IMG/VR virus record: IMGVR_UViG_3300027899_000001
Span: 334,373 to 398,372 of that record
Reading direction: 5' to 3' (one strand)
From: a virus
DNA: 64,000 nt
A program made the translations under genes and the position numbers. Shown here one piece after another: positions 2,191 to 50,081 of this stretch (its first letter is position 1; each line of letters opens with the position of its first letter). The notes under the pieces are model-generated. The model was given only the letters and a program-made list of their open reading frames with translations, ran no database searches and was not told where the DNA came from.

Positions 2191-2233
2191 GAGTGTAAAT
2201 ATAATACTAATTTCTGAATTAAAAAAATATTTT
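2191..2233 (-). promoter_or_regulatory. conserved promoter-like motif, copy 1
   Basis: gtgtaaatataatactaatttctgaattaaaaaaatatttt; in gene sense this is AAAATATTTTTTT..TCAA/TTCAG..TTATATTTACAC. Confidence 0.5.
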
Positions 2234-2238
2234 ATCAA

Positions 2239-2838
2239 TTATTTTCTAATAATATGATTATTTATTTTTTGAGGCATAGCTGCTTCTATTAGTTTATCTG
2301 AAAATTGAATATTAGGACATTTCTTTTGCGCTTTTTCAAGAAATACTTTATACTCGTTTATATATTTTTTATAGTTCGCGTATACATAAATTAATCTATT
2401 GCTTTCTCCAATTGCTATTGTATTTGAGTCTCCTACTCTTTGAACAGTTAAAAATTTAGATTTTGTAGGAAGAACTGTAGTCCAATTTTTATTTGTTTCT
2501 TGTAGTACTAATTGTTCAGCTTTTAACACTGAAAGAATATCATTGTGAATATTATTAGGTCTAAATTCTAAAAATAAATCTCCGTTTTCTATTATTACTC
2601 CTCTAACATCTTTTCCAAAATTGGTTAAATATTCTGGATTTCTCCATATTATAAAATCTTCATTTCTATAAAAAGGTTTTTTATCTCCTTTAAGTTTTTG
2701 TTTTTCTTGTTCTTCTTTATACTTTTTTTCAAATTCTTCATGTTCTCTTGGAACTCTTGATAAATTAGAATCTTGAGCAATAAACTTATCTGATATACTC
2801 TCTTCTATTTTAATATTTTCACGAACAATCTTTAACAT
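2239..2838 (-). CDS. hypothetical protein whose N-terminus (MLKIVRENIKIEESISDKF) is weakly related to the EKF/DMGIG-leader family
   Basis: 199 aa ORF; only the first ~18 residues resemble the family leader. Confidence 0.5.
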   Translation of the reverse strand: MLKIVRENIKIEESISDKFIAQDSNLSRVPREHEEFEKKYKEEQEKQKLKGDKKPFYRNEDFIIWRNPEYLTNFGKDVRGVIIENGDLFLEFRPNNIHNDILSVLKAEQLVLQETNKNWTTVLPTKSKFLTVQRVGDSNTIAIGESNRLIYVYANYKKYINEYKVFLEKAQKKCPNIQFSDKLIEAAMPQKINNHIIRK

Positions 2839-2853
2839 TTTTAATTTATATAT

Positions 2854-3063
2854 TCAATTTAAACCTATAGCAGTGAAACCTATTAGATAAGTATTATACA
2901 CTTTAAATATATGATATTCTTTTTTAACAGCTTGATATTGAGCATATGCTTCAAGAGATATAAATTCATTAATAGTTACTTTAGCCTGATCAAAACAATA
3001 TAACAATACATGATGCTGTCCAAGAGCTGCTGCATAAGTTGCAAAAATTTCTTTCTTTTTCAT
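2854..3063 (-). CDS. hypothetical small protein; the start is probably the internal Met (MKKKEIF), giving an ATGA overlap with the upstream gene
   Basis: The track ORF 2854..3129 overlaps 3060..3440 by 70 nt; using the internal ATG gives the 4-nt overlap seen elsewhere in this operon. Confidence 0.4.
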   Translation of the reverse strand: MKKKEIFATYAAALGQHHVLLYCFDQAKVTINEFISLEAYAQYQAVKKEYHIFKVYNTYLIGFTAIGLN

Positions 3064-3440
3064 AATAAATCTATCATTTCTTGAGTTAGTGTTCCTTGTA
3101 ATAATGTACAATTTGCAGGAGACCCCCAATATTCAATTTTATCTACTTCATAAAATCCTATTCTTTTGAACATTGAAGCTAATTTTTTAGTTATAGAAGC
3201 TGCTTGTAATAAAGTTTCAGGAGGAAAATAAGAAAGTAACTGTTTTAACATTAATTTAAATTTTCCAGTTCCTCTATATTCTTTAAAAACTATACTTCCA
3301 TTAAGAATAACCAAACCATTTGGATATTCTTTATTTATAATATAAAAATAGTCTATATTACCATATTGTGTTTCAAATATATGTGGCGTGAAGATCACCT
3401 CGTTATCATCGAGTGATTCTCTGACTACTTTAGTATCCAT
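3060..3440 (-). CDS. GNAT-family N-acetyltransferase (small)
   Basis: Motif-A-like segment VFKEYRGTGKFKLMLKQLL (R-x-x-G-x-G); about 126 aa. Confidence 0.45.
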   Translation of the reverse strand: MDTKVVRESLDDNEVIFTPHIFETQYGNIDYFYIINKEYPNGLVILNGSIVFKEYRGTGKFKLMLKQLLSYFPPETLLQAASITKKLASMFKRIGFYEVDKIEYWGSPANCTLLQGTLTQEMIDLL

Positions 3441-3475
3441 CTTATATGGTTATATTAAAATTTATTTATGTTCTT

Positions 3476-3521
3476 AGAGAGTAAATATAATAAAATTTTT
3501 TGATATAAAAAAATATTTTAT
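3476..3521 (-). promoter_or_regulatory. conserved promoter-like motif, copy 2
   Basis: gagagtaaatataataaaattttttgatataaaaaaatatttt, about 40 nt upstream of the ATG at 3440. Confidence 0.5.
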
Positions 3522-3530
3522 CAATTATTT

Positions 3531-3731
3531 TTATTCTTCTTTTATATAAGCGTTTTTTACTTTAACGTTTTTCTTTACAGCATTTATAAACTGCCATGGA
3601 TTTTCAATTCCATAAATTTCTTTTCTATAATTATTATCATATATTATGACTACACAATATGTAACAGGTTTAAGAGGCACATACCCATTAAAAAAGGATT
3701 TTGGATTATATGATTTAAAAAAATCACTCAT
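3531..3731 (-). CDS. hypothetical protein
   Basis: 66 aa ORF, ATGA-overlapped with the downstream gene. Confidence 0.4.
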   Translation of the reverse strand: MSDFFKSYNPKSFFNGYVPLKPVTYCVVIIYDNNYRKEIYGIENPWQFINAVKKNVKVKNAYIKEE

Positions 3732-5570: not shown

Positions 5571-6146
5571 ATGATTAAAGAAGAAAAACATCATTATGTA
5601 TATTTAACTACTAATCTTATCAATGGTAAACAATATATTGGTGATAGAACATGTAAATGTAATCCTGAAAATGATAAGTATTTAGGAAGTGGCAGACCAT
5701 ATTTTCAAAATGCTATTAAAGAATATGGAAAAAATAATTTTAGCAAACAAATACTTGAATGTTTTAATACAAGAGAAGAAGCTTTTAATGCCCAAGAAAA
5801 ATATATTATACAATATAATACGCTTATTCCTAATGGATATAATATAAGTCCTAAAGGTGGCCATAATGTTAAAGAATGTTGGAGCAAAGAATCTAAAGAA
5901 AAATGCAGTAACACTAAAAAAGGAAAAATTGGATATTGGAAAAATAAAAAATTATCAGAAGAACATATTAAACATTTAAAAGAAAATCATAAAGGAATGT
6001 TAGGAAAATATCATTCAGATGATTCTAAATTACAACTTAGTAATTCAATGAAAATCAAAAATAACGGAAAAGAAACAGAAGAACATAAACAAAAAATAAA
6101 ATTAAGTATGCAAAATTATTGGGCAAAAAAGAAATTAGTGCATTAA
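5571..6146 (+). CDS. GIY-YIG homing endonuclease (Seg/I-TevI-like)
   Basis: N-terminus HYVYLTTNLINGKQYIGD matches GIY-YIG; the basic C-terminal repeats (GKIGYWKNKKLSEEHIKHLKENHKG) resemble NUMOD DNA-binding modules; it is on the opposite strand to its neighbours. Confidence 0.8.
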   Translation: MIKEEKHHYVYLTTNLINGKQYIGDRTCKCNPENDKYLGSGRPYFQNAIKEYGKNNFSKQILECFNTREEAFNAQEKYIIQYNTLIPNGYNISPKGGHNVKECWSKESKEKCSNTKKGKIGYWKNKKLSEEHIKHLKENHKGMLGKYHSDDSKLQLSNSMKIKNNGKETEEHKQKIKLSMQNYWAKKKLVH

Positions 6147-6364: not shown

Positions 6365-7579
6365 TTATTTTATATTAAGTTGATATTTACAAAATTCTAT
6401 CATTTTTTCATCTCCTGTATGTTTTCCTTCTGAATCAGACAATTTAATACAAGGTACCCATTCATCGTCAGGATCAGGTTTTGCTGCAATTAGTTTAATA
6501 ACCATATTAAGTGGGTTAACTCCAACATCATTAGATAAATTTGTGCCTATTCCCATTGCGCATTTAATTTCTTTATTACATGATTTTGTTAATTCAATTG
6601 CAAGATCAGGATTAAGATTATCTGAAAAAATTATAGTTTTATCATTGGGGTCAATTCCCATACTTTGATAATGTTTAATAACTTTTTCTGCAAAATGAAA
6701 TGGATTTCCACTATCATGTCTTACACCATCAAAAAGCTTTGAGAATTTTTTTCCAAATGATTTAAAGAATGATTCTGTTGTAAATGTATCTGTAAGAGCA
6801 ATTCCAAGATCACCTTGATAAACATTTGACCAGTTTTCAAGAGCTAAAAAATTTGCTTGTTTAAATCCATATTTTGCAGCATGAAACATAAACCATTCAT
6901 GTGCATGAGTTCCTATTGGAGTAAGATTAAACATATGAGCAAAGTGTACATTAGAAGTTCCATTAAAATTATCTCTCATACTAAATGCTAAATCTTCTAC
7001 AACTTCTTTTTGATTTTCATATGAATATCTTCTACGAGTTCCAAATTCAGAAATCTTAACTCCATGATTATTAAATAATGCAGCTTTTTTTAGATTATTT
7101 TGTTCTCTTTCTACTCTTGAATTTATTTTTTCTCCCGTCATTTTAAAATACAATTCAGATATAAGAGCAAGAAGTGGAACTTCCCAAAGAATTGTACGAT
7201 ACCAGTAGCCTTCTACAGTTACTTGAAGTTCACTTCCATTTTGTATAACTCCAACTTCTGAAGGATTATATCTATATCCTGCCAAAAAATCAAAATACGC
7301 AGGATCGATATATTTACATTTAGTTTCAAAGAAGTGTTTTTCTGCAGTCAAAAGTTTAAGAGAAGACATATGAGAAATTTGTAATCTTAGTTCTTCTGCA
7401 AATCCTTCTGGAAAATTTACTTTTGAACGAACTATTAATGCATATTTAACTTTTGCTCTTGGAAAAAGTTTTAACACTGCATTCATCATACTAAATTTAT
7501 AAAGATCGTTATCGAGTATTGATGTAATTATAGGTTCCATTTTATATTTTTTTAGCATGAAAATAAGTGACTCCATCAA
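6365..7579 (-). CDS. pncB: nicotinate phosphoribosyltransferase
   Basis: N-terminus TSILDNDLYKFSMMNAV and GTHAHEW are characteristic of PncB; about 404 aa. Confidence 0.85.
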   Translation of the reverse strand: MMESLIFMLKKYKMEPIITSILDNDLYKFSMMNAVLKLFPRAKVKYALIVRSKVNFPEGFAEELRLQISHMSSLKLLTAEKHFFETKCKYIDPAYFDFLAGYRYNPSEVGVIQNGSELQVTVEGYWYRTILWEVPLLALISELYFKMTGEKINSRVEREQNNLKKAALFNNHGVKISEFGTRRRYSYENQKEVVEDLAFSMRDNFNGTSNVHFAHMFNLTPIGTHAHEWFMFHAAKYGFKQANFLALENWSNVYQGDLGIALTDTFTTESFFKSFGKKFSKLFDGVRHDSGNPFHFAEKVIKHYQSMGIDPNDKTIIFSDNLNPDLAIELTKSCNKEIKCAMGIGTNLSNDVGVNPLNMVIKLIAAKPDPDDEWVPCIKLSDSEGKHTGDEKMIEFCKYQLNIK

Positions 7580-8388: not shown

Positions 8389-9293
8389 TTAAAAGATTAG
8401 ACTTCCTTCATCATCCCAACGACAATATAATTTACTATTTTCTCTTAAGATAACATATTTAAGAGATTCGTTATTGCCTTTAGACATACAATCATCATCA
8501 ATAACAACTGACATTCCATTTATAGAATAAACTTTTGCACCAAACGGAAGAGTATAAAGAAATTCACCATTTCCCGCCTTTTTAGGAAACATTCTCTCAG
8601 TTCCTATATATGCATTTTCTCCTGTAATATATTTCTTAATAGCACTTATAGTTTCGTCTTTACATGCATTTTCTTTAACCCATTCACCTTCGTCATTTAT
8701 AATAAATCCATCTTTATCTAACTCATAATATATTTTTCTAAAAGTAACTTGATTTGCACCAAGAAATTTACATCTAGCTATAATTTCTTTTGGAGTATGA
8801 TTATCATATTCTTTTAACATATTAAGACTTAAACGAATATTAAATCCTCGTGATTTAAGTAAAGAAATTAATTCTGATAAGTTAAATTTTAATTTTTTAG
8901 AAACTCCAATTATATTTAAATTATTTTCATCAGAAAAAATATCAGCAACAGAAAGACTTATCGTATTTACTTGAAGTTTTTGTAATAATCAATATTATCA
9001 TCATCTAATAATACTCCAGTAGTTTGTAACTCAACATTAGGAAATGGATAATTTAAATCTTTAAATAAAACAGATAAAACTTTTAAGAAATTTGTATTTT
9101 GCAAAGCTTCTCCTGTTCCTGTAAGAATACAAGTATTTACTCCATTCATTACAGCATACTTAATACGTTTTTCTATTTGAATATACATAAAAGTATCTTC
9201 ATATGGAGAATCATGCATTCTACTTACACAAAATGGACATTTATTTACACAACTTTTTGTAGGAACTACGATAGAAATTGTCTAAATGTTCAT
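8389..9293 (-). pseudogene. radical-SAM-like gene interrupted by an in-frame TAG (codon 4) and a -1 frame change at an AAAAAAC site; either a pseudogene or a recoded gene
   Basis: From the ATG at 9291-9293 the reading is ATG AAC ATT TAG ACA.. TKSCVNKCPFCVS (CxxxCxxC) ..LTGTGEAL (GGE-like) up to the stop at 8967. The -1 frame is open from 8991 and runs into ORF 8389..8820 with no start codon. The overlap contains TAC AAA AAC. Confidence 0.5.
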
Positions 9294-9359: not shown

Positions 9360-10010
9360 TTAAATATTTCCTATAAAAGAAAGTGTAAGAGAATCTACAT
9401 AATAAACTTTAGCTTGTGTAAAAGCTTCTATAGTTTCTGACAAATCTGAATTTATTGATTTACACGCATCTTCAATAACATATGTATTAAAACCTTCCAT
9501 TGCTGCATCTATTGCAGTTTCTTTCACACAATAATCTAGAGCTAAACCACATACGTAAACTTCAACTACATTTCTTTCATTAAGAAAATCTTGAAGTTTT
9601 TTAGGAGCATCTGGATTTATTATTTTTGATCTATCAAATGCACTATAAACATGATTATTCCTTTCCATGCCTTTTTTAAAGATATAAAAATCTTTTTTGC
9701 ATTTTGATAAATTCAGATCTGGATGAAATGAAGCACCTAATGTATCTGCTACACAATGATCAGGCCAAAGAATATCTTTTTCTCCATTTTCTCTTACGTA
9801 ACTATCGTAAACAGAAGCTCCGGGATGTTGTGAGGCGAAAGCATCCATTTCTGGATCATGCCAATCTTGTGTAAATATAACTAAATCAAATCTTTCAAGG
9901 AGATCATTAACTACGGGTACAATTTTGTCTCCATCTGGTACTGCTAGTGATCCTCCAGGGCAAAAATCTCTTTGCAAATCGATCACTATTAATGCTTTTT
10001 TCTTTATCAT
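9360..10010 (-). CDS. pncA: nicotinamidase (isochorismatase family)
   Basis: VIDLQRDFCPGGSLAV matches the PncA N-terminal motif; about 216 aa. Confidence 0.8.
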   Translation of the reverse strand: MIKKKALIVIDLQRDFCPGGSLAVPDGDKIVPVVNDLLERFDLVIFTQDWHDPEMDAFASQHPGASVYDSYVRENGEKDILWPDHCVADTLGASFHPDLNLSKCKKDFYIFKKGMERNNHVYSAFDRSKIINPDAPKKLQDFLNERNVVEVYVCGLALDYCVKETAIDAAMEGFNTYVIEDACKSINSDLSETIEAFTQAKVYYVDSLTLSFIGNI

Positions 10011-10011
10011 A

Positions 10012-10170
10012 TCATCTTATAGTTTGAATTTCATATTCATCATATCCATCTCTTGATTCATCTGAATCTATACATACAATTTCTAATCCAAATGATTGTA
10101 AAGCGTCTGATATATTGTCTACAATTTCATCAGCTCTATCATCATAATCTACTCTAAATTTTGATTTCAT
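10012..10170 (-). CDS. small acidic ORF (52 aa) translationally coupled between nadE and pncA
   Basis: ATG at 10168-10170 overlaps the nadE stop (ATGA) and its own TGA overlaps the pncA ATG (ATGA); it is below the ORF-track size cutoff. Confidence 0.4.
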   Translation of the reverse strand: MKSKFRVDYDDRADEIVDNISDALQSFGLEIVCIDSDESRDGYDEYEIQTIR

Positions 10171-11102
10171 AATTCTTCCTTTTTATTTTTAACATATCTA
10201 TTGTATATACTATTTTCATTTTCTATTATATCGTGTCTATATATATTGACAGGATTATTTCTTTTGAATTGAGATTTTAAATGTCGTTGAATGACAGAGT
10301 GTTGACGCATTTTATTAATTTCATCCATATATACTGCATTAACAGTTGGTGAATGTTTTTCAATAAAGTCTAAATATTCTTTAAGTATTCTATCAACTTC
10401 TTTATAACCATCTCTAGAATTTCCTGTCCAGTCTGGCATTATTTGTCCAAGATCTCCAAGATTTGTAACTCCAAGGCCATCAGTTGCAAGTGCAGTTATC
10501 GTATTTATTATTGTACTTCCTGCTTCATAATTTCCAGCATATTCATTCATAGTTAACCATTCTGCCATATCATATACTTCTGTTTTCCAAAGATTTTGTA
10601 TCATACCATAATCACCTACATCACCATGAAGAGTCCAAAAACCAAGAAGAAATTCTGTATAATTATCAGTAGAAAGAACTATTCCACGATGATATGAAGC
10701 TAAATCATACAAATAAATCATACGCAGTCTTGCTTTAAGATTTCCATTACGTATACGACTTGATGAACCTTCAGGATTAGGCGCATGAAACAGCATATTA
10801 GATTCCATTTTGGAATACATAAAATTATATTCTTCTTCAACGCTATGCTCTAAGAATTTTGTACAAAATACTTTTCCTGTTAATTTGGCTCTTTCTAATT
10901 CTTCTGGTTGATTTGAACTTACTGGCAAACTTCTTCCTATAAGTGGAATATTTAATTCATCACAAACTGGTCTAGCAAGTGCTGCGCAAAGACAACTATC
11001 TATTCCACCTGAAATCCCTATAATAAGAGACTTTATATTATTGTTTGTAATATACAGACTTAATTCTTTTCGAATATTCGATACTGCTATTTGATAATTC
11101 AT
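10167..11102 (-). CDS. nadE: NH3-dependent NAD+ synthetase
   Basis: PP-loop GISGGIDS ATP-pyrophosphatase motif; about 311 aa. Confidence 0.8.
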   Translation of the reverse strand: MNYQIAVSNIRKELSLYITNNNIKSLIIGISGGIDSCLCAALARPVCDELNIPLIGRSLPVSSNQPEELERAKLTGKVFCTKFLEHSVEEEYNFMYSKMESNMLFHAPNPEGSSSRIRNGNLKARLRMIYLYDLASYHRGIVLSTDNYTEFLLGFWTLHGDVGDYGMIQNLWKTEVYDMAEWLTMNEYAGNYEAGSTIINTITALATDGLGVTNLGDLGQIMPDWTGNSRDGYKEVDRILKEYLDFIEKHSPTVNAVYMDEINKMRQHSVIQRHLKSQFKRNNPVNIYRHDIIENENSIYNRYVKNKKEEL

Positions 11103-11875: not shown

Positions 11876-12123
11876 TTGAATTCTGCTTCTAAATTTCTTA
11901 AATGTTCATTAGTATATTCGTATTCTATTTTATCTTCATAATCATAAAGATATATTTTATCTTTACATACTTTTGTTATTTTACACTTAAAATTTTTCCA
12001 AGAATAACAATTATATAAATTATCTACAACTCCTGACCAATTATATTTTTTACCTTCAACTAGTTGAAAACCATCATGAGTTACAAATATCTTTTTGGGT
12101 TTTTTCTTAAATGGATTTTTCAT
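11872..12123 (-). CDS. hypothetical protein
   Basis: 83 aa ORF. Confidence 0.4.
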   Translation of the reverse strand: MKNPFKKKPKKIFVTHDGFQLVEGKKYNWSGVVDNLYNCYSWKNFKCKITKVCKDKIYLYDYEDKIEYEYTNEHLRNLEAEFK

Positions 12124-22865: not shown

Positions 22866-22910
22866 TTATAGTGTAAATATAATAAAAAGATTTGACAGAA
22901 AAAAATATTT
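22866..22910 (-). promoter_or_regulatory. conserved promoter-like motif, copy 6
   Basis: tagtgtaaatataataaaaagatttgacagaaaaaaatattt. Confidence 0.5.
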
Positions 22911-22916
22911 AAGCAA

Positions 22917-39480: not shown

Positions 39481-39494
39481 GAGTTAATATTTTG

Positions 39495-41973: not shown

Positions 41974-42294
41974 CTAAAGTTTATTAATGATATCTAATAT
42001 GTCATTATATGCTGTAATTTTTCCACGAATAAAATTACGTAAAAGCTTGTAATCAGGATCAAGTTCTTCATATTCTTTTTCCATTTCATTTTCACGTGTT
42101 ACTATTTCTTCAACTAGCTTTCCTACAACTTTATCATTTTTAATATCTGAATAAGATTTATCAAATACTATTTTATCTGCAATTGCATCTGCAACAAATT
42201 GAGGATTAAAATGACTTGATGCATCAAGTTGTCCTGCCAATGAATTTTGAAGAAGAGTTACAATAATTTCTTTTGCCCTTGCGTTATTTTCCAT
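41974..42294 (-). CDS. hypothetical protein
   Basis: 106 aa ORF; promoter motif 14 nt upstream. Confidence 0.4.
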   Translation of the reverse strand: MENNARAKEIIVTLLQNSLAGQLDASSHFNPQFVADAIADKIVFDKSYSDIKNDKVVGKLVEEIVTRENEMEKEYEELDPDYKLLRNFIRGKITAYNDILDIINKL

Positions 42295-42305: not shown

Positions 42306-42348
42306 TATGTAAATATAATCAAAATACTTGATATAAAAAAATATATTA
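42306..42348 (-). promoter_or_regulatory. conserved promoter-like motif, copy 9
   Basis: tgtaaatataatcaaaatacttgatataaaaaaatatatt. Confidence 0.45.
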
Positions 42349-42576
42349 CCAAGATATTGTTGTTTCCACTGAATTTCCTTTTGACCATACTTCAATATTA
42401 AAACCATCTTTTACAAGCCAATCTTTTGTAATCTTAAAAAGATGTTCATTTATTTCTAATTCAAATTGGCCTTCTCTTACTTTTCTTTCAATATAAGATT
42501 TAATACGAGTGTATTGTTCTTGGCCCAATTCTGTACCCCATCCTTCTGCTTTTTCTCTTGCTTCTTGTGCGTTCAT
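42346..42576 (-). CDS. hypothetical protein
   Basis: 76 aa ORF. Confidence 0.35.
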   Translation of the reverse strand: MNAQEAREKAEGWGTELGQEQYTRIKSYIERKVREGQFELEINEHLFKITKDWLVKDGFNIEVWSKGNSVETTISW

Positions 42577-42577
42577 A

Positions 42578-42844
42578 TTATTTACATTTTTTAATTGTAT
42601 CGCCTACATTAAATGTTTGACTTATAGCATTTGCAAATGCTGAAGTGCATACAAAAGATTTAAATGTTCCATCGGCATCTTTTAAAACAAAAGAACCCCA
42701 TTTTCCCGTTGAATCTTTTGTAGATTCAGCAAACATAATAACAGGGCATTTCATTCTAGCAAGTACTTGTTCTGGAAAATCTTGTCCACATGAATTTAAC
42801 ATAAATGTTAATAACACTATTAAAATAAAACCTTTAATTTTCAT
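42578..42844 (-). CDS. putative lipoprotein
   Basis: MKIKGFILIVLLTFMLNSCG lipobox. Confidence 0.5.
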   Translation of the reverse strand: MKIKGFILIVLLTFMLNSCGQDFPEQVLARMKCPVIMFAESTKDSTGKWGSFVLKDADGTFKSFVCTSAFANAISQTFNVGDTIKKCK

Positions 42845-43098
42845 ATTGATTTATTATTTAATTTATCTTCTTTAATCGTAGTTTTTGCAGAATTAACTAG
42901 TAGCCATAAACCATCTATAGCCATAGCTAAAGAACATCCTGTACAAAATAATGCTACTATCCATACCATCCACCCCGGAGTATTTACATCTATTAAACTT
43001 CTTACTACTATGCCCCCAATAACTCCCATTGAAATTGCACCTAAAATAAGAAACCACCAATAAAATTTAATTCGTTTTCCTGTTATTTCTGTTCTCAT
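42841..43098 (-). CDS. membrane protein
   Basis: Two TM helices. Confidence 0.4.
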   Translation of the reverse strand: MRTEITGKRIKFYWWFLILGAISMGVIGGIVVRSLIDVNTPGWMVWIVALFCTGCSLAMAIDGLWLLVNSAKTTIKEDKLNNKSI

Positions 43099-43391
43099 TA
43101 TTTAAGTATTTTAATTTGTTTTGCTAAAAACCATTTTCCACCTTGACTTGCGGGTCTATTAAATTCTGTGTAATCTTTCATTTCAACTTGTAACCAGACT
43201 CTACCTTTATTGCTTAAATGTGGTGCATCTGGATGCTCTGTACAATGCCAAAAAGGACGTACCTTATATCCCTTTGTTGGATAAGATTTTGCATCTAACC
43301 ATACATTTGCTTGTAATTTTTCACTTTTATTTATGAAAAGAGATGTAATTTCTCCTGATTTAAGTTGTCTAAATAACTTATATACTATCAT
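43098..43391 (-). CDS. hypothetical protein
   Basis: 97 aa ORF. Confidence 0.4.
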   Translation of the reverse strand: MIVYKLFRQLKSGEITSLFINKSEKLQANVWLDAKSYPTKGYKVRPFWHCTEHPDAPHLSNKGRVWLQVEMKDYTEFNRPASQGGKWFLAKQIKILK

Positions 43392-43567
43392 TTCTTTAAA
43401 TCGTTATCAAGTTTATTTAATATTTCCACTCTTGCATTTTCTATTTTATACATAATTAAAGCACCAATAGATCCCATAAAAAAGGAATCAGTTGGATGAA
43501 TAATAGTAAATATCATTAAAATAATTACTAAAGATAAGTAAAATAAACTGTAGTCTTTTGTTTTCAT
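43391..43567 (-). CDS. small membrane protein (about 59 aa), not in the ORF track
   Basis: MKTKDYSLFYLSLVIILMIFTIIHP...; ATGA overlap with 43098..43391; promoter motif 23 nt upstream. Confidence 0.35.
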
Positions 43568-43700: not shown

Positions 43701-44504
43701 ATGAAAGATTTTAGAAAAACAGAAAATGGATTTTTTATTTGTGAAGAATGTGGGATAATAACTAAAAGAAAATCTGGGTTAAGTAAACATATTAATATTC
43801 ATCATATTAATGTAAAAACATATTTTGATAAATGGATAAAAGATATCGATGATGATAAATGTAAAATATGTAAAAAAGAAACTAAATATCTTAACATAAA
43901 AACTGGATATAAAAATACTTGTTGTAAAAAATGCGAAAATTTATATAAACATAATAGAACAAAAGAAGAGTGTATTAAAAAATATGGAGTAGAACACCCT
44001 TTGCAAGATATATCTATAAATGAAAAACAAAAACAATCAATGATAAATGTTTGGGGTGTAAGTAATCCTGGCCAATCAAATGAATTAAAATTAAAAAAGA
44101 AAAAAACTTTTGTATTAAGATATAAGTGTGAAAATCCTTTACAAATTAAAACAATATTTTATAAAACTCAAATATCTGGATATAATTGTAAATTATTCAA
44201 AAATACTACTATTTATTATAGAGGCTCATATGAATTAGATTTTTTAGAAAAATATTATGACATATACCCCGATATTGAAAACGGTCCATCTATTAAATAT
44301 AAAATCGGTGTAAAAAATAAAATATATTATCCGGACTTTTTTATTCCGTCATTAAATCTTATAATTGAATGTAAAAATTCGTATTTAGCTAAAAAAGATA
44401 AAAAACTTATAAAGATTAAAGAAAATGCATGTATTGAAAACGGTTTTAATTATTGTATTATAATAAATAAACAATATGAAAATTTAAGATGGCTCAAGAA
44501 TTAA
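43701..44504 (+). CDS. C2H2 zinc-finger plus PD-(D/E)XK nuclease, homing-endonuclease-like
   Basis: CEECGIITKRKSGLSKHINIHH; C-terminus YYPDFFIPSLNLIIECK; opposite strand to its neighbours. Confidence 0.55.
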   Translation: MKDFRKTENGFFICEECGIITKRKSGLSKHINIHHINVKTYFDKWIKDIDDDKCKICKKETKYLNIKTGYKNTCCKKCENLYKHNRTKEECIKKYGVEHPLQDISINEKQKQSMINVWGVSNPGQSNELKLKKKKTFVLRYKCENPLQIKTIFYKTQISGYNCKLFKNTTIYYRGSYELDFLEKYYDIYPDIENGPSIKYKIGVKNKIYYPDFFIPSLNLIIECKNSYLAKKDKKLIKIKENACIENGFNYCIIINKQYENLRWLKN

Positions 44505-45185
44505 TCCTATTCCTGAAATATTTTTTATATTTAATTTTATTTTATTTTCTTTAAATGTCTTTCGTAAATAAGATAAATAAACATCACAAGATCTACCAGC
44601 AAAATAATCATTTGGTTTTCTCCAAACTTTTTCAAGTATAACTTCTTTTCTTACAACTTGTCCGTAATTTATTGCTAATACTTCAAGTATACTACCTTCT
44701 TTAGGAGAAAGCTCTTTAACTTCTTTTCCGTTATAAGAAAGAATTCTACGAGTTGGATCATAAACACATTTTGCAAATTCAATTTTATCATGCATTTTAA
44801 CTGTAAGTTTCTGAAGAACTTCAAATGTTTTTGTGTATGAAAGAATATTATGTACAACTGATTTGACAAATACATTATATGCAGCATCTCCTTCAAATTT
44901 CATGGGTTCATTCACATAAATATCAGCAGGAACAGTAAAAGTTAATTCATTTACAATAATTCCTATGATAGGAGTATATGGCGTACTTTTTTTAATAAAA
45001 CCTACAGCCTTTTTGAAAAATAGAGTATCGTTTGATAAAATATAAGCTTCTGCACTGCCTTGCTCAATTTGTTCAAATAAAACATGTTCCATTTTTGCCC
45101 CAATTATTTCGTGGCCAGATTCTTTTGCGAATCTTATAAACATATTTAACAAATCAGTGTTTTCTGTATTCACTACAATTTTCAT
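44484..45185 (-). CDS. OmpR/PhoB-type winged-helix transcriptional regulator with an atypical N-terminal domain
   Basis: The C-terminus SPKEGSILEVLAINYGQVVRKEVILEKVWRKPNDYFAGRSCDVYLSYLRKTF resembles trans_reg_C; the N-terminal domain lacks an obvious receiver Asp pocket. Confidence 0.5.
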   Translation of the reverse strand: MKIVVNTENTDLLNMFIRFAKESGHEIIGAKMEHVLFEQIEQGSAEAYILSNDTLFFKKAVGFIKKSTPYTPIIGIIVNELTFTVPADIYVNEPMKFEGDAAYNVFVKSVVHNILSYTKTFEVLQKLTVKMHDKIEFAKCVYDPTRRILSYNGKEVKELSPKEGSILEVLAINYGQVVRKEVILEKVWRKPNDYFAGRSCDVYLSYLRKTFKENKIKLNIKNISGIGLILEPS

Positions 45186-45246: not shown

Positions 45247-45281
45247 TTAAAAATTAATTAAGATTTAATGTTAATGTTTTG

Positions 45282-45482
45282 TTAATGTTCTTTTATGTAA
45301 TGAGAAATTACACTTACAAGTGCATCAGATTCTTCTTGAGTAAATTCTCCATTTTTTACGGCTTCTGTCATTCTTTTTTTCACATCTCTAAGATATAAAA
45401 AATCGCTTAATTTTTCAAATATGAATATTAATATACATAATCCGGTAATAGACATTGTGATAATAAATAAAATGTTATTCAT
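45282..45482 (-). CDS. small membrane protein
   Basis: N-terminal TM helix. Confidence 0.35.
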   Translation of the reverse strand: MNNILFIITMSITGLCILIFIFEKLSDFLYLRDVKKRMTEAVKNGEFTQEESDALVSVISHYIKEH

Positions 45483-47385: not shown

Positions 47386-47586
47386 TTAGCGAATTTTACG
47401 AATAAGAATGTGTTTAGAAAGAACCATATATACGTTACAAGATTCAGTGATGTTGTAAACATGAAGTTCATTTTTAACTTTATCAATTCCTTTAATTTGT
47501 ACAAGGTCATTAGCGTGAGTAATATAAACTCCGTCTTTTTTCAATTCGTCTACTGGAAGAGATGGGTCTTTAAGTATTGGTTTCAT
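47386..47586 (-). CDS. hypothetical protein
   Basis: 66 aa ORF. Confidence 0.35.
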   Translation of the reverse strand: MKPILKDPSLPVDELKKDGVYITHANDLVQIKGIDKVKNELHVYNITESCNVYMVLSKHILIRKIR

Positions 47587-47619
47587 ATTGTAAATATTAA
47601 ATTAAAACTTCAAATTATT

Positions 47620-47705
47620 TGCTCCAATATATAGATTCGAACTATAAGCCTTTTCAGGTTCCTGGCCTCTATTTGGGCTCTCATCCAAATGAGTAAAGGA
47701 GTATA
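47620..47705 (-). other. tRNA-like element or tRNA pseudogene
   Basis: Perfect T-arm TATAG-TTCGAAT-CTATA, but no clean acceptor or D-arm pairing; it lies between a promoter-motif copy and the next gene. Confidence 0.25.
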
Positions 47706-47747
47706 TTTTTAATTTTAAAGAACTGTTGTATTAATTATAGTGTAAAT

Positions 47748-48027: not shown

Positions 48028-48034
48028 GATATTT

Positions 48035-48796
48035 TTATTTTAATCGATTAAAAAATAATTCTGGTTTAAGTATTTCTTCTACAGTTGGAGGTTTATTATG
48101 AGCTAATATTTGTATTCCTTTTTTGAGCCCATATTTATCTAAAAAATCTCGTAAAAAATAATAAGAATAAACATATTTATTATTCACTTCATTATTTTTA
48201 TCTAATAAATCTTCTATAGTTTGAGGAATTTGAATTTTATCTAATGGTGAACATTCCTTTAAATGATACACAACATATTCGCACGTACCTTCTTCTATAA
48301 AATCTGCACTAAATTGAGAATTATAGGTTGAAACTGTTCTTAATATTTGATATTCTGGAGAAACTGATAAACTATCATTTTTCATCAGTATTGTTAGCTG
48401 ATGAAAATATACGTGTGTTAATTCATGAAATACAACTGCTTTAACACTTCTTTCTCTATATGAAGTTAGCATTTTTCGAAATTTAGATAAATCTTTATAT
48501 TCATAACAAAGATATTTTTCTCTATTGGTTATAGCTATATCATTAGGAGGATAAAATTCGCCTAAATTATCTTCAGGAGAATCACCCAAGTCATCGGTAT
48601 AAAGATTAACATCATATAATGTATCTATTTTATATTCATATTCTTTAATAAGACTTTCATTATTATCTTCAATATATTTTGTTATTCCATATCTTGAAGG
48701 TGCATGAAGATTATTATACATAATATCCTTTTGAAAAGGAGATATCATAATAAGCCATAAAATAAAAATACCTACAAGATTATTGATACTATTCAT
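48035..48796 (-). CDS. putative zinc metallopeptidase (HExxH), membrane-anchored
   Basis: HELTH motif (VVFHELTHVYFHQ); N-terminal TM helix. Confidence 0.5.
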   Translation of the reverse strand: MNSINNLVGIFILWLIMISPFQKDIMYNNLHAPSRYGITKYIEDNNESLIKEYEYKIDTLYDVNLYTDDLGDSPEDNLGEFYPPNDIAITNREKYLCYEYKDLSKFRKMLTSYRERSVKAVVFHELTHVYFHQLTILMKNDSLSVSPEYQILRTVSTYNSQFSADFIEEGTCEYVVYHLKECSPLDKIQIPQTIEDLLDKNNEVNNKYVYSYYFLRDFLDKYGLKKGIQILAHNKPPTVEEILKPELFFNRLK

Positions 48797-48803
48797 ATAT
48801 ATT

Positions 48804-48847
48804 TTTTACAAATATAAACCAAATTCTTGAATAAAAAAAATATTTTT
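48804..48847 (-). promoter_or_regulatory. conserved promoter-like motif, copy 13
   Basis: acaaatataaaccaaattcttgaataaaaaaaatattttt; about 10 nt from the ATG at 48796. Confidence 0.45.
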
Positions 48848-49113
48848 ATATTTATTTTAGTAACTATACCATTTTAATATACGTGTCGCGCGAGGGTTTT
48901 TATGATTCAGTCTAGAGTATCTGCATTCCTAGAGGGCTTTAGTCTTCAGTTATATGCAGTCAGTGAAAATAGTTTCGCACCAAAATTAATGTTCTGTTAA
49001 AAATAATTTAAAAATAAATGCATAAATATTTTTTTATTACATTAATATTGTTTATATTTGTTCTCAACATAAATATATAAAGTAATGAATGCAATACTAA
49101 ACAAATAAACAAG

Positions 49114-49635
49114 ATGGAAGTAATTAACAAATTAATATTCAAAAAGGCTTCAGGGGAAGTCGTTGATAATGTAGAAAAATATGTTAAGGATTGGACTAAA
49201 GAAAATCCTTATGGAAAAATTATTGTTGGATGTGATAGTCAAGTACATGGACGCAGAATCAAATATTCAATAATTATTTGTATGCATTTTATTGACAGAA
49301 TGCAGGTTGGTCACGGATGTCACTTATTAATATGTGATATTTGGGAAAAACGAATGAATAAATCTCAAGTTGATGAAATGCCATCTAAACTTTGGAAAGA
49401 AGCTGAATTTGCATTACAGACTGCAGAATTGGTAAATGGAACAGATGAATACTTCAAAAATCATATAGAAGTTCATTTGGATTTTAATTCAATTGCTGAA
49501 TCTAATTCACATCAAAATCTATCCAATAGAATGTATGCATCTGGTATAGGATTGCTAAGTGGATATGGATATAAGGTTTTTGGAAAGCCTTTCGCAAAAA
49601 TTTCCTCAAACTGTGCAGACCATTTCTGCAGATAA
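49114..49635 (+). CDS. hypothetical protein
   Basis: 173 aa ORF; followed by a terminator. Confidence 0.4.
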   Translation: MEVINKLIFKKASGEVVDNVEKYVKDWTKENPYGKIIVGCDSQVHGRRIKYSIIICMHFIDRMQVGHGCHLLICDIWEKRMNKSQVDEMPSKLWKEAEFALQTAELVNGTDEYFKNHIEVHLDFNSIAESNSHQNLSNRMYASGIGLLSGYGYKVFGKPFAKISSNCADHFCR

Positions 49636-49672
49636 TTCAAAAGCCCGTATTTCTCGGGCCTTTTTTAATTTT
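49636..49672 (+). terminator. rho-independent terminator
   Basis: AAAGCCCGtatttctCGGGCcTTTTTT. Confidence 0.6.
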
Positions 49673-49702
49673 AATATAGATGAATAAATATAATAAAAGG
49701 CC

Positions 49703-50041
49703 ATGAAAAAACTTCTTATTATTTTATTATTATCTTTAAGTTTAATATCTTGCAGTAAATATTATACAATGGTTATCTATGATAGAACGTATCCTGCGGC
49801 AGATTCTGAAATAGCATATGCAGATTTATATCAACATTTGAAATCATATAATATGGAATCTATTCCACTTGATAAATGGATTTATAATGACATGCAACAT
49901 GATACTATTCATATTACTCAAAAAATGGCAGCAAAAGAAATAGGTAAAAAAGATAATGTATTATTTGTATTTACAGAATTTAAGTATCCAAAATCTTCAT
50001 ATTATAAATTTGTTATAAGATATACAGGAAAAAAGTACTAA
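49703..50041 (+). CDS. putative lipoprotein
   Basis: MKKLLIILLLSLSLISCS lipobox. Confidence 0.5.
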   Translation: MKKLLIILLLSLSLISCSKYYTMVIYDRTYPAADSEIAYADLYQHLKSYNMESIPLDKWIYNDMQHDTIHITQKMAAKEIGKKDNVLFVFTEFKYPKSSYYKFVIRYTGKKY

Positions 50042-50081
50042 ATTATTTTTTTATATCAAGTATTTTGTTTATATTTGTATA
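50040..50081 (+). promoter_or_regulatory. conserved promoter-like motif in plus orientation, immediately upstream of a plus-strand gene
   Basis: ttatttttttatatcaagtattttgtttatatttgtataATG; same gene-sense consensus as the minus-strand copies. Confidence 0.5.

What the first reader, a model, noticed from the sequence alone, without database searches (positions are those of the whole stretch)
2191..50081. A roughly 45-bp conserved promoter-like motif repeated at least 15 times, 3-42 nt upstream of start codons
Gene-sense consensus: AAAATATTTTTTT-(a)T(a)TCAA(g)-N7-8-TTATATTTAC(AC). Copies are at 2191, 3476, 9308, 14687, 15337, 20112 (degenerate), 22866, 26787, 39441, 42306, 43588, 45204, 47748 and 48804 (all minus), and 50040 (plus, in front of a plus-strand gene). 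The orientation always matches the downstream gene. The TATATTTA core resembles the Bacteroidetes sigma-A -7 element TAnnTTTG, and most genes lack Shine-Dalgarno sequences. In two copies the motif ends 3-4 nt before the ATG, which implies leaderless transcripts. On the antisense strand the motif happens to contain TATAAT and TTGACA/TTGATA in the wrong order for a sigma-70 promoter.
Basis: seen in the sequence. Interest (0 to 1): 0.55.

Follow-up and report, generated by a model that had tools for sequence, protein, structure and literature searches.

The report
Megaphage promoter family for Bacteroidota hosts
The repeated ~45-bp motif is real (18 copies) and is most likely a family of strong promoters that a Lak-like giant phage uses to have its Bacteroidota host's RNA polymerase transcribe its non-structural genes and tRNAs; this is a solid but expected kind of feature.

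Summary
Observation confirmed and extended. A 41-nt matrix finds 18 copies: the 15 reported plus 26871(-), 33357(-) and 49023(+). Shuffled sequence gives about 0.5 weak hits. All copies are intergenic, ungapped and co-oriented with the next gene or tRNA. Conservation spans about -54 to +3.

The core, T-12 A-11 T-8 T-7 T-6 (G/A)-5, is the Bacteroidota primary-sigma "-7" element. A T-run sits where the -33 TTTG belongs. Three ORFs start exactly 4 nt after the -7 box, the published box-to-TSS distance, so they are probably leaderless.

The window is a fragment of a Lak-megaphage relative: clamp loader 41% identical, 19 tRNAs, 29% GC, almost no Shine-Dalgarno sequences. The same architecture lies directly upstream of chromosomal tRNA genes in Bacteroidales and Flavobacterium genomes, in cultured Riemerella and Chryseobacterium phages, and in multiple copies in relatives.

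Best reading: host sigma-A-dependent, T4-early-like promoters. This is a new member of a known kind.

Unexplained extras: an invariant C at -25; A instead of G at -5 in 12 of 18 copies; a TTAAC-N6-TTAAC box that accompanies degenerate T-runs and is conserved upstream of a phage OmpR/PhoB-type regulator; and a second, T4-late-like motif, ATGAATATATAAAATAAA.

The parts
2193..2233 (-). Promoter copy 1. It belongs to the identical sub-family AATTCAGAAATTAGTA. A 37-aa ORF starts 14 nt after the predicted TSS, and tRNA-Lys/Gly lie about 400 nt downstream.
   Evidence: PWM 47.4 bits; context
3479..3519 (-). Promoter copy 2. It heads ORF 3060-3440 with a predicted 5'UTR of 37 nt.
   Evidence: PWM 38.9 bits
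9309..9349 (-). Promoter copy 3, identical core to copies 1 and 8. It heads ORF 8967-9218. An in-frame upstream ATG at 9293 would need a TAG at codon 4 to be read through.
   Evidence: PWM 47.4 bits
14689..14729 (-). Promoter copy 4, with a TTAAC box abutting upstream. A 267-nt leader precedes ORF 14190-14420, followed by the Ro/TROVE gene 12442-14145.
   Evidence: PWM 42.3 bits
15338..15378 (-). Promoter copy 5, with an abutting TTAAC box. The ATG of ORF 14743-15336 (DUF6939) begins at the predicted +1, so the mRNA is probably leaderless.
   Evidence: PWM 37.1 bits
20108..20148 (-). Promoter copy 6, degenerate: no T-run and a -7 box of TAGATTTA, with an abutting TTAAC box. It lies upstream of ORF 19656-19982 and the suppressor tRNA(CUA).
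   Evidence: PWM 15.6 bits, which is within the range of the best shuffle; TCA and box geometry are kept
22871..22911 (-). Promoter copy 7. It heads ORF 22657-22857 with a 5'UTR of 12 nt, followed by tRNAs.
   Evidence: PWM 42.8 bits
26789..26829 (-). Promoter copy 8. tRNA-Cys (26673-26756) starts about 31 nt after the predicted TSS. This copy heads a block of tRNA and small genes.
   Evidence: PWM 46.8 bits
26871..26911 (-). Promoter copy 9 (new). It sits in tandem, 82 nt upstream of copy 8, and is preceded by the terminator hairpin at 26943-26967.
   Evidence: PWM 39.4 bits
33357..33397 (-). Promoter copy 10 (new), with an abutting TTAAC-like box. It heads the NfeD-like ORF 32803-33327 and the SPFH gene 31211-32770, with a 5'UTR of 28 nt.
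   Evidence: PWM 37.7 bits
39440..39480 (-). Promoter copy 11, with a degenerate T-run and an abutting TTAAC box. The ATG of the HAD_SAK_2 ORF 38968-39438 is at the predicted +1. The HAD motif DIDGV begins at residue 7, so no alternative start is plausible.
   Evidence: PWM 22.4 bits
42307..42347 (-). Promoter copy 12. It heads the operon 41974-42294 / NUDIX / clamp loader (39887-40843), with a 5'UTR of 11 nt.
   Evidence: PWM 45.3 bits
43589..43629 (-). Promoter copy 13, with an interrupted T-run. It heads five small ORFs spanning 42346-43567, with a 5'UTR of 20 nt.
   Evidence: PWM 26.2 bits
45206..45246 (-). Promoter copy 14. It heads the OmpR/PhoB-type winged-helix regulator gene 44484-45185, with a 5'UTR of 19 nt. 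TTAAC boxes lie 24-45 nt upstream.
   Evidence: PWM 45.4 bits
47740..47780 (-). Promoter copy 15. A 152-nt leader precedes ORF 47386-47586, followed by two GT2 glycosyltransferase genes.
   Evidence: PWM 45.6 bits
48806..48846 (-). Promoter copy 16. It heads ORF 48035-48796 with a 5'UTR of 8 nt, and is divergent from copy 17.
   Evidence: PWM 41.8 bits
49023..49063 (+). Promoter copy 17 (new, plus strand). It has ACA in place of TCA at -26..-24. It heads the RNaseH_like ORF 49114-49635 with a 5'UTR of 49 nt.
   Evidence: PWM 26.8 bits
50040..50080 (+). Promoter copy 18 (plus strand). The ATG of the phosphatase-like ORF 50082-50546 is at the predicted +1, so the mRNA is probably leaderless.
   Evidence: PWM 42.6 bits
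14731..14746 (-). TTAACAAAATTTTAAC box, a direct repeat with an 11-bp period. Here it sits 1 nt upstream of copy 4. The same geometry occurs at 15380-15395, 20151-20166, 33400-33415 and 39483-39498. A further box lies 24 nt upstream of copy 14 at 45270-45285.
   Evidence: 13 matches against 2.3 expected, 12 of them gene-sense; aligned. This is a candidate regulator site (inference).
44484..45185 (-). Phage-encoded OmpR/PhoB-family winged-helix DNA-binding protein (233 aa). It is the candidate binder of the TTAAC boxes (hypothesis).
   Evidence: Pfam Trans_reg_C E=1e-12; PDB matches to ArlR/PhoB/PhoP DNA-binding domains; the box-promoter-gene arrangement is conserved in L332, L333 and L335

Best explanation
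The motif is a multi-copy family of strong promoters. The host's (Bacteroidota) RNA polymerase, carrying the primary sigma factor (sigma-A/sigma-ABfr), reads them to transcribe the non-structural, early/middle-type modules of a Lak-like giant phage. These modules contain small ORFs, tRNA genes, nucleotide and NAD metabolism genes, replication accessory genes and a regulator.

Anatomy, numbered from the predicted start site (an A that is the second nt after the 41-nt core):
- an A-tract or AAAATAAATG element at -55..-46, which looks like an UP element;
- AAaTATTTTTTT at -41..-30, a T-run occupying the position of the -33 TTTG;
- T-C-A at -26..-24;
- ATTT at -20..-17;
- TTATATTT(A/G)cAy at -13..-2, which contains the -7 element TAnnTTT(G/A);
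- a pyrimidine-A start.

Three copies place this +1 on the A of an ATG and so should produce leaderless mRNAs. One copy fires into a tRNA gene.

What is shown: the repeat, its placement, its fixed geometry, its match to the published -7 element, its occurrence before host tRNA genes, and its presence in relatives.

What is inferred: that transcription starts there, that host sigma-A holoenzyme alone suffices, and that these promoters act early.
For: 1. Statistics and placement: 18 copies against about 0.5 weak chance hits. All are intergenic and co-oriented.

2. Match to the published element: T-12, A-11, T-8, T-7 and T-6 are 18/18. These are the nearly invariant positions of the Bacteroidetes -7 element. 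The 4-5 nt box-to-TSS gap is reported in PMC6847099. The -33 TTTG/-7 TAnnTTTG consensus is in PMC7366714.

3. Leaderless geometry: three ORFs begin exactly 4 nt after the box. One is a HAD protein whose catalytic motif starts at residue 7, which fixes its start codon.

4. Host genomes: the same T7-N3-TCA-N10-TTATATTTGCA architecture lies 7-16 nt upstream of chromosomal tRNA-Met, tRNA-Arg and tRNA-Leu genes in Bacteroidales (one contig has 53% GC) and Flavobacterium genomes. One tRNA-His promoter not selected by the pattern reads AAAATATTTTG-N19-TAACTTTG, with identical spacing.

5. Taxonomic bias: about 37% of the 111 genome hits are Bacteroidota.

6. Cultured Bacteroidota phages carry it in intergenic, co-oriented positions: Riemerella RAP44 before gp76, and Chryseobacterium MA9V-2.

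7. Relatives carry multiple copies: L250 has 4, L332 has 7 in 12.6 kb, L333 has 6, and L123 has 3 of a variant form.

8. Host phylum: the clamp loader is closest to Prevotella Lak phages. SD sequences are nearly absent and A is enriched at -3 and -13. Sigma-70-type matches are not enriched.

9. Not an RNA element: folding z-scores run from -0.94 to +0.60, and there is no Rfam family.
Against: - No transcription start site has been mapped. All timing and strength claims are inferred.
- G-5 is nearly invariant in F. johnsoniae but is A in 12 of 18 copies here.
- The -33 position has TTTT, not TTTG.
- The most informative position is an invariant C at -25 (18/18, 2.8 bits). It is not part of the published host consensus. 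It was not clearly enriched in a noisy sample of 268 host TAHHTTTG sites (C 0.22 against 0.205 background). It is C in 60 of 118 phage promoters selected without regard to it. This leaves room for a phage-specific or phage-favoured contact.
- The absence of the motif from 50.1-64 kb (tail-fibre genes) is weak evidence for a temporal class, because that region has only about 5 intergenic gaps.
- Lak-A1 and Lak-B5 do not show this exact motif near their clamp-loader genes. Their -7 boxes read TGTATCTTTG.
Confidence: 0.8

Rival explanations
1. The motif is a promoter, but it needs a phage-encoded specificity factor. This could be a phage sigma, a sigma-appropriation pair like T4 MotA/AsiA, or an activator contacting T-run/TCA at -36..-24. 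Under this reading the conserved non-host positions (C-25, T-run, A-5) are the factor's recognition site.
For: - C-25 is invariant and is the most informative column, yet it is absent from the published host consensus.
- It was not enriched in the host -7-box sample.
- A replaces the near-invariant G-5 in 12 of 18 copies.
- The element lies about 11 nt upstream of the -7 box, which is where the MotA box lies relative to -10 in T4 middle promoters (established knowledge).
- The phage does encode at least one DNA-binding regulator.
Against: - The full architecture, including TCA, occurs immediately upstream of chromosomal tRNA genes in three Bacteroidota genomes.
- TCA occurs at the same position in canonical Prevotella and Tannerella TTTG-N19-TAnnTTTG promoters.
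- The architecture is shared by many unrelated viral contigs and by cultured Flavobacteriales phages. That would require a very widely shared factor.
- The regulator gene itself sits behind such a promoter, so at least the first round must be factor-independent.
Confidence: 0.13
2. The repeats act primarily as recombination substrates or mobile regulatory cassettes, like the PeSL promoter-plus-stem-loop cassettes of T4-type phages. In that case they shuffle small ORFs between genomes, and promoter activity is secondary.
For: - Three copies (2193, 9309, 26789) are identical over about 36 nt, including non-consensus spacer bases.
- The copies bracket many small, unannotatable ORFs and homing-endonuclease-like genes.
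Against: - Only 1 of 18 copies has an adjacent terminator-like hairpin.
- Homology ends at the motif borders, and there are no inverted or direct terminal repeats.
- Orientation and distance to start codons are constrained as expected for promoters.
- Positional conservation upstream of the regulator gene in four genomes indicates a regulatory function.
Confidence: 0.04
3. The motif is the promoter of a phage-encoded RNA polymerase, either T7-like or a crAss-like virion RNAP.
For: The consensus is long, highly conserved and multi-copy, which is typical of phage RNAP promoters. A 2290-aa ORF initially suggested a crAss-type giant RNAP.
Against: - The 2290-aa protein is a DUF285/PKD repeat protein, not an RNAP.
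- No RNAP domain was found in the roughly 48 window ORFs scanned.
- The motif contains the host-type -7 element and occurs before host tRNA genes.
Confidence: 0.03

Closest known systems
Bacteroidota primary-sigma (sigma-ABfr) promoter, -33 TTTG / -7 TAnnTTTG (TAHHTTTG). Sources: Bayley 2000 and Vingadassalom 2005, as cited in PMC7366714 and PMC6847099.
   Same: - T-12, A-11, T-8, T-7 and T-6 are invariant, and there is no G at -10/-9 in 17 of 18 copies.
- There is a 4-nt gap to the inferred start.
- The spacer is AT-rich, with a -18 AT motif.
- A T-rich block lies 19 nt upstream of the box, where TTTG lies.
- Downstream genes lack SD sequences and have A-rich leaders.
   Different: - G-5 is A in 12 of 18 copies.
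- The -33 element is TTTT rather than TTTG.
- About 57 nt are conserved, rather than two short boxes.
- An invariant TCA at -26..-24 and a conserved AAAATA/A-tract upstream are not part of the published consensus.
T4 early promoters: a host sigma-70-dependent, multi-copy, extended consensus with an A/T-rich upstream tract.
   Same: The logic is the same. Many near-identical copies of an "ideal plus" version of the host housekeeping promoter head blocks of small early ORFs, tRNA genes and nucleotide-metabolism genes in a large myovirus-like genome that has T4-type replication accessory genes (clamp loader).
   Different: The sigma specificity differs (Bacteroidota -7/-33 against -10/-35). Early timing has not been demonstrated here. 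No ADP-ribosylation (Alt/Mod) context was examined.
Bacteroides phage-derived strong constitutive promoter P_BfP1E6 (Whitaker et al. 2017 Cell). The paper is not held. Its use as a strong phage promoter is confirmed in PMC11554821. Details beyond that come from my recollection.
   Same: A phage promoter read by uninfected Bacteroides RNAP at very high strength shows that Bacteroidota phages carry super-consensus host-type promoters.
   Different: I could not compare sequences, so homology is untested.
T4 middle promoters (MotA box) and PhoB/OmpR-dependent promoters (direct-repeat boxes that replace the -35 element).
   Same: This applies to the sub-class with TTAAC-N6-TTAAC. It is an 11-bp-period direct repeat placed just upstream of the core. 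It occurs where the T-run (-33 equivalent) is degenerate in 4 of 5 abutting cases. A phage OmpR/PhoB-type winged-helix protein is encoded nearby.
   Different: Binding is not shown. The protein's N-terminal 130 residues match no receiver domain. The box lies at about -45..-60, not at -30.
PeSL (promoter-early stem-loop) cassettes of T4-type phages.
   Same: Repeated early-type promoters are interspersed among small, poorly conserved ORFs.
   Different: The defining adjacent stem-loop is present at only 1 of 18 copies.

Membership tests
Bacteroidota sigma-A (sigma-ABfr) promoter | -7 element TAnnTTTG: T-12, A-11, T-8, T-7 and T-6 nearly invariant, and no G at -10/-9 | tested here: met
   All five positions are 18/18. 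There is one G at -10, in the degenerate copy at 20108. Definition from PMC6847099.
Bacteroidota sigma-A (sigma-ABfr) promoter | G at -5, the last base of TAnnTTTG, nearly invariant | tested here: not met
   G in 6 of 18 copies and A in 12 of 18. Relatives and other phage promoters also mix A and G: 54 A to 64 G when R is allowed.
Bacteroidota sigma-A (sigma-ABfr) promoter | -33 element TTTG, 19-21 nt upstream of the -7 element | tested here: inconclusive
   A T7 run occupies exactly this position, but G is absent. The host tRNA-His promoter in L138 has AAAATATTTTG with the same spacing. The literature itself finds the -33 element weak in Flavobacterium.
Bacteroidota sigma-A (sigma-ABfr) promoter | Transcription starts 4-5 nt downstream of the -7 element | not testable with these tools
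   There is indirect support only. Three ATG start codons lie exactly 4 nt after the box, and an A (13/18) preceded by a pyrimidine sits at that position.
Bacteroidota sigma-A (sigma-ABfr) promoter | Used by host housekeeping genes | tested here: met
   The same extended architecture lies 7-16 nt upstream of chromosomal tRNA-Met (L146), tRNA-Arg (L185, 53% GC) and tRNA-Leu (L212).
T4-type early promoter class (functional analogy) | Many copies of an extended host-sigma consensus heading early gene blocks | tested here: met
   18 copies in 48 kb of non-structural genes and tRNAs, with about 57 nt conserved.
T4-type early promoter class (functional analogy) | Active immediately after infection without phage proteins | not testable with these tools
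   No expression data exist for this uncultivated phage.
PeSL mobile regulatory cassette | Promoter physically coupled to a stem-loop or terminator | tested here: not met
   Only the copy at 26871 is preceded by a hairpin (26943-26967). The other good hairpins are not next to motif copies.
Phage-RNAP promoter (T7-like or crAss-like) | A phage-encoded RNAP is present | tested here: not met
   No RNAP domain was found in the window ORFs scanned. The 2290-aa ORF is DUF285/PKD. The rest of the genome was not seen.
Structured RNA or known RNA family | Stable or conserved secondary structure, or an Rfam match | tested here: not met
   Folding z-scores are -0.94 to +0.60. Rfam finds only tRNAs.
OmpR/PhoB-type regulator with a direct-repeat operator (for the TTAAC boxes) | Winged-helix Trans_reg_C domain protein encoded by the phage | tested here: met
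   ORF 44484-45185: Pfam Trans_reg_C 1e-12, and PDB ArlR/PhoB/PhoP DNA-binding domains.
OmpR/PhoB-type regulator with a direct-repeat operator (for the TTAAC boxes) | Tandem direct-repeat site with a 10-11 bp period near the -35 equivalent, bound by the protein | tested here: inconclusive
   Repeats with an 11-bp period are enriched (13 against 2.3 expected). They sit at a fixed distance from the core and are conserved upstream of the regulator gene in L332, L333 and L335. Binding is untested.

The most novel reading that the evidence does not exclude
The phage clade runs a three-tier, T4-like transcription programme written in Bacteroidota promoter grammar.

(i) Host-only super-promoters. Their T-run and invariant C-25 (TCR) would form a promoter element of Bacteroidota RNAP that has not been described. 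Many unrelated Bacteroidota phages and some host stable-RNA promoters would exploit it.

(ii) A sub-class in which a phage OmpR/PhoB-like winged-helix protein bound to TTAAC-N6-TTAAC replaces the -33/T-run contact. This would resemble MotA or PhoB, and the protein would autoregulate.

(iii) A late class, ATGAATATATAAAATAAA, in front of tail-fibre and homing-endonuclease genes.
Probability: 0.2. Interest if true: 0.6.

Novelty: new member of a known kind. Interest (0 to 1): 0.33.

Why it matters
- **Host assignment.** Lak-like megaphages are uncultivated and their gene regulation is unknown. I found no description of their promoters in the held literature. The motif gives a sequence-only indicator of host phylum: a Bacteroidota -7 element, no SD sequences, and leaderless starts.
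- **Operon map.** It gives a map of transcription units for about 48 kb of mostly unannotated genes.
- **Synthetic biology.** It gives a set of natural, probably very strong promoters, including variants that would produce leaderless mRNA. These could be tested as parts for Bacteroides or Prevotella engineering.
- **Testable hypotheses.** The invariant C at -25 and the TTAAC-box/OmpR-like regulator pair are concrete hypotheses about promoter recognition and temporal control in Bacteroidota phages.
- **Caveat.** The kind of element, a phage early promoter modelled on the host consensus, is well known, so the finding is confirmatory rather than surprising.

Tried and rejected
1. crAss-like phage with a virion RNAP promoter. 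The 2290-aa ORF is a DUF285/PKD protein and the 1295-aa ORF is a collagen-like tail fibre.

2. Near-identical public phage. Megablast of 20 kb against INPHARED found nothing.

3. TAG recoding as an explanation for ORF-free gaps downstream of some copies. Treating TAG as sense barely raises coding coverage (0.867 to 0.891), and most extensions are spurious. Only the ORF at 9293 is suggestive.

4. The motif in Lak-A1 and Lak-B5 around their clamp loaders. It is not found there. These phages have a related but different box, TGTATCTTTG.

5. PeSL-like promoter and terminator coupling. Not supported.

6. Sigma-70-type promoters. Not enriched over shuffles.

7. RNA structure or an Rfam family at the motif, and in the 152-nt leader after copy 47740. 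Nothing was found.

8. Whether C-25 is a general host feature. A sample of 268 TAHHTTTG sites from 38 Bacteroidota loci is too noisy, with no clear enrichment.

9. Papers that could not be read because they are not held: Whitaker 2017 and Chen 2007, the ompA promoter mutagenesis study.

It was useful only after PWM re-scoring.

Full report
**What is there**

The window has 28.9% GC. Most genes are small and lie on the minus strand up to about 48.9 kb, after which plus-strand genes follow. Printing the 15 reported positions in gene sense showed an obvious shared sequence.

The core TTATATTTRYA occurs 17 times against 2.3 expected; none of 100 shuffles reached 17. I built a 41-nt weight matrix from 13 clear copies and scanned both strands. 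There are 18 hits of at least 15 bits, 16 of them above 22 bits. Fifty Markov shuffles gave on average 0.54 hits of at least 10 bits, with a best score of 19.3.

The 18 hits are the 15 reported copies plus 26871-26911(-), 33357-33397(-) and 49023-49063(+). All align without gaps.

All 18 lie between ORFs or tRNAs, although ORFs cover about 87% of the window. All 18 point towards the next gene. Sequence similarity stops at the edges of the element, so there is no flanking homology and there are no terminal repeats.

**Anatomy**

I set +1 at the second nucleotide after the 41-mer. Column statistics over the 18 copies show these conserved blocks:
- AAAA at -54..-51, often as AAAATAAATG at -55..-46;
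- AAaTATTTTTTT at -41..-30;
- T-C-A at -26..-24, where C is 18/18 and is the most informative column at 2.8 bits;
- ATTT at -20..-17;
- TTATATTT at -13..-6, where seven of the eight columns are 18/18 and -10 is 17/18;
- A (12) or G (6) at -5, followed by c-A-y-t;
- A at +1 in 13 of 18 copies.

This numbering was not fitted to the literature, yet it coincides with it. In F. johnsoniae the nearly invariant positions of the -7 element are T-12, A-11, T-8, T-7, T-6 and G-5. G is avoided at -10/-9, and bona fide promoters have 4-5 nt between the element and the start site (PMC6847099). B. thetaiotaomicron dRNA-seq found the same -7 TAnnTTTG / -33 TTTG promoter upstream of 81% of primary start sites (PMC7366714).

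**Leaderless starts and targets**

Three ORFs begin with ATG exactly at the predicted +1:
- 14743-15336 (DUF6939);
- 38968-39438 (HAD_SAK_2);
- 50082-50546 (phosphatase-like).

The HAD protein has its catalytic DIDGV motif at residues 7-11, so its start codon cannot lie further downstream.

Eight other copies have predicted leaders of 8-37 nt, close to the 23-nt mode in B. thetaiotaomicron. Five have leaders of 49-267 nt. Copy 26789 lies about 31 nt before tRNA-Cys, and copy 26871 lies in tandem 82 nt further upstream.

The genes behind these promoters are non-structural:
- NAD salvage genes (NAPRTase, NAD synthase, isochorismatase-type);
- dCMP deaminase, NUDIX and a Ro/TROVE protein;
- an SPFH/NfeD pair;
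- 5'-3' exonuclease, clamp loader and an RNase H-like protein;
- two GT2 glycosyltransferases;
- an OmpR/PhoB-type regulator;
- many small ORFs of unknown function.

No copy precedes the collagen-like tail-fibre gene (52318-56205) or the 2290-aa DUF285/PKD gene. That region offers only about five intergenic gaps, so the absence is weak evidence for a temporal class.

**Whose genome and which host**

Megablast found no close relative among deposited phages. The clamp loader is closest, at 41% identity, to the Prevotella Lak megaphages. IMG/VR holds relatives at 64-71% identity, one on a 322.9-kb contig.

The window carries 19 tRNA genes, including a CUA-anticodon suppressor. SD-like sequences precede only 3 of 95 ORFs, against 11% at random positions. 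A is enriched at -3 and -13. This is the Bacteroidetes translation-initiation signature described in PMC6847099.

Sigma-70-type promoter matches are not enriched. A Bacteroidota host is therefore well supported.

**Is it a host-type promoter?**

A scan of 185,579 species genomes for T7-N3-TCA-N10-TTATATTTRYA gave 111 loci, about 37% of them from Bacteroidota. Several of those genomes have 40-53% GC, where a 34-nt AT-only match is very unlikely by chance.

In three of them the element sits 7-16 nt upstream of a chromosomal tRNA gene:
- L146, tRNA-Met;
- L185, tRNA-Arg, on a 62-kb contig with 53% GC;
- L212, tRNA-Leu, in Flavobacterium.

A tRNA-His promoter that was not selected by the pattern (L138) reads AAAATATTTTG-N19-TAACTTTG. 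It has the same left block and the same spacing as the phage element. Canonical TTTG-N19-TAnnTTTG promoters in a Prevotella genome and a Tannerella genome carry TCA at the same -26..-24.

BLAST of the consensus against deposited phages gave significant hits in Riemerella phages, in Chryseobacterium jumbo phage MA9V-2, and at 11 places in a 462-kb uncultured phage. The Riemerella RAP44 match lies in a divergent intergenic region 16 nt before gp76. The MA9V-2 match is also intergenic and co-oriented.

So the architecture is used by hosts for stable-RNA genes and by unrelated phages of the phylum. This points to recognition by the host holoenzyme.

**Conservation in relatives**

- Locus L250, from the 322.9-kb relative, has four copies in 2.7 kb. 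They share the upstream TTAAAATAAATTGA and the +1 TATAATTAA.
- Loci fetched through the regulator gene carry 7 copies (L332, 12.6 kb) and 6 copies (L333) scoring up to 42 bits.
- L123 has three copies of a variant, ATTTTTTTATCCCA-N10-GTTATATT(T/A)GATC.
- Lak-A1 and Lak-B5 have a related but different box, TGTATCTTTG.

**What does not fit the plain host model**

G-5 is A in two thirds of the copies. The -33 block lacks the G.

The invariant C-25 is not in the published consensus. I scanned IMG/VR with a pattern that fixes only the T-run and the -7 box. In that sample -25 was C in 60 of 118 instances and -24 was a purine in 110 of 118. The T-C-R element is therefore common among such phage promoters.

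In a noisy sample of 268 host TAHHTTTG sites I saw no clear C enrichment. Whether C-25 is a feature of the strongest host promoters or a phage-favoured contact remains open.

**Rivals**

- A structured RNA or terminator is excluded. Folding z-scores run from -0.94 to +0.60 and Rfam finds only tRNAs.
- A PeSL-like promoter and stem-loop cassette is not supported, because only one copy has an adjacent hairpin.
- A phage RNAP promoter is unlikely. No RNAP domain was found in the ORFs scanned, and the giant ORF is a repeat protein.
- A requirement for a phage factor cannot be excluded. It is disfavoured by the host tRNA promoters. It is also disfavoured because the regulator gene itself lies behind such a promoter.

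**Additional layers seen**

(a) A TTAACAAAAYWTTAAC box is enriched: 13 matches against 2.3 expected, 12 of them gene-sense. TTAAC repeats within it with an 11-bp period.
- It abuts the core, with a 1-2 nt gap, at five copies. In four of these the T-run is degenerate.
- It also occurs 24 nt upstream of copy 45206, which drives the 233-aa OmpR/PhoB-type winged-helix protein.
- The arrangement of boxes, promoter and regulator gene is conserved in L332, L333 and L335.
- OmpR/PhoB proteins bind tandem direct repeats with a 10-11 bp period (established knowledge). An autoregulated phage activator or repressor acting on a promoter sub-class is therefore a reasonable but untested inference.

(b) A second motif, ATGAATATATAAAATAAA, lies 6-20 nt before start codons. 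Its core occurs 14 times against 1.3 expected.
- It precedes the tail-fibre gene, the gene after the 2290-aa ORF, and two plus-strand homing-endonuclease-like genes.
- It is conserved in relatives and in Lak loci.
- It contains a TATAAA(A)TA string reminiscent of the T4 late promoter, so it may be a late or middle promoter class.

**Verdict**

The element is best described as a family of host-sigma-A-type, T4-early-like promoters of a Lak-related megaphage. This is a new member of a known kind.

Its value is as an operon map, as a host-phylum signature, and as a source of testable hypotheses (C-25, the TTAAC box with its regulator, and the late-like motif). It is not a surprise in kind.

Noticed in passing
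window 430-440(-), 2847(-), 5540(+), 21918(-), 26560(-), 30262(-), 30458(+), 38799(-), 49680(+), 52288(+), 63922(+): A second conserved upstream motif, (C/T)ATGAATATATAAAATAAA, lies 6-20 nt before start codons and is always gene-sense. Its core AATATATAAAWTAAA occurs 14 times against 1.3 expected. It precedes the collagen-like tail-fibre gene and two plus-strand homing-endonuclease-like genes, and it is conserved in relatives and in Lak loci. It contains a T4-late-promoter-like TATAAA(A)TA string, so it may be a late or middle promoter class.
   Followed up: partly
window 469, 12387, 14651, 14731, 15380, 20151, 33400, 36333, 38837, 39483, 45270 (all minus); regulator ORF 44484-45185(-): A TTAACAAAAYWTTAAC direct-repeat box is enriched, with 13 matches against 2.3 expected. 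It abuts the main promoter at five copies, and in four of these the T-run is degenerate. It also stands alone 27-28 nt upstream of the second motif at 469 and 38837. Boxes upstream of the OmpR/PhoB-type regulator gene are conserved in L332, L333 and L335.
   Followed up: partly
window 19554-19627(-); 19 tRNAs between 486 and 26756: The window carries 19 tRNA genes, all on the minus strand, including a suppressor tRNA with anticodon CUA (ARAGORN calls it 'Pyl'). This suggests TAG recoding elsewhere in the genome, as is known for Lak phages. Within this window the standard code fits. TAG ends 5 ORFs of at least 100 aa, and only the ORF starting at 9293 has a suggestive in-frame TAG at codon 4.
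   Followed up: partly
window 5571-6146(+), 17229-17885(-), 24191-24994(-), 25884-26549(-), 30477-31181(+), 37928-38629(-), 43701-44504(+): There is a high density of homing-endonuclease-like genes: GIY-YIG SegE-like plus NUMOD3, DUF559/Vsr-like, endonuclease I-like, HNH plus NUMOD3, and DUF7487 with a C2H2 finger. They are interspersed among tRNA and replication genes, and several lie on the opposite strand.
   Followed up: no
window 6365-7579, 9360-10010, 10167-11102 (all minus); 12442-14145(-); 31211-33327(-): Auxiliary metabolic content includes an NAD+ salvage set (NAPRTase, isochorismatase/nicotinamidase-type, NAD synthase), a Ro/TROVE-domain protein, and an SPFH/Band-7 plus NfeD pair.
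   Followed up: no
window 47590-47738(-): A 152-nt untranslated stretch lies between promoter copy 47740 and the next ORF. It contains a tRNA T-arm-like AGTTCGAATCT and shares ATATACTCCTTT with the region upstream of copy 26871 (at 26981). There is no Rfam or ARAGORN call, and the folding z-score is -1.09. It may be a decayed tRNA or a small RNA.
   Followed up: partly
L051 (98, 497), L018 (3587), L189 (4938) and similar IMG/VR or MAG loci: In some unrelated phage contigs the T-run and TCA element form the loop and 3' arm of a perfect inverted repeat, for example CTGACAT-TTTTT-ATGTCAG and CTGAGAT-TTTTT-ATCTCAG. The repeat is centred on the -33 region of an otherwise similar promoter, which suggests an operator overlapping the promoter in those phages.
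   Followed up: no
window 52318-56205(+), 57026-63898(+): Two giant late-type genes are present. One is a 1295-aa collagen-repeat tail fibre with a C-terminal S74 intramolecular chaperone domain. The other is a 2290-aa protein with PKD and DUF285 (BspA-like) repeats. A 143-aa collagen-repeat ORF lies between them at 56547-56978.
   Followed up: no
window 12349-12402(-): A possible 19th, degenerate promoter copy. A TTAAC box at 12387-12402, just after the terminator hairpin at 12409-12434, is followed about 33 nt later by TATATTAGCAT-TATAA. The TAnnTTAG variant is also used in L123 and L332. It lies ahead of ORF 12120-12323.
   Followed up: partly
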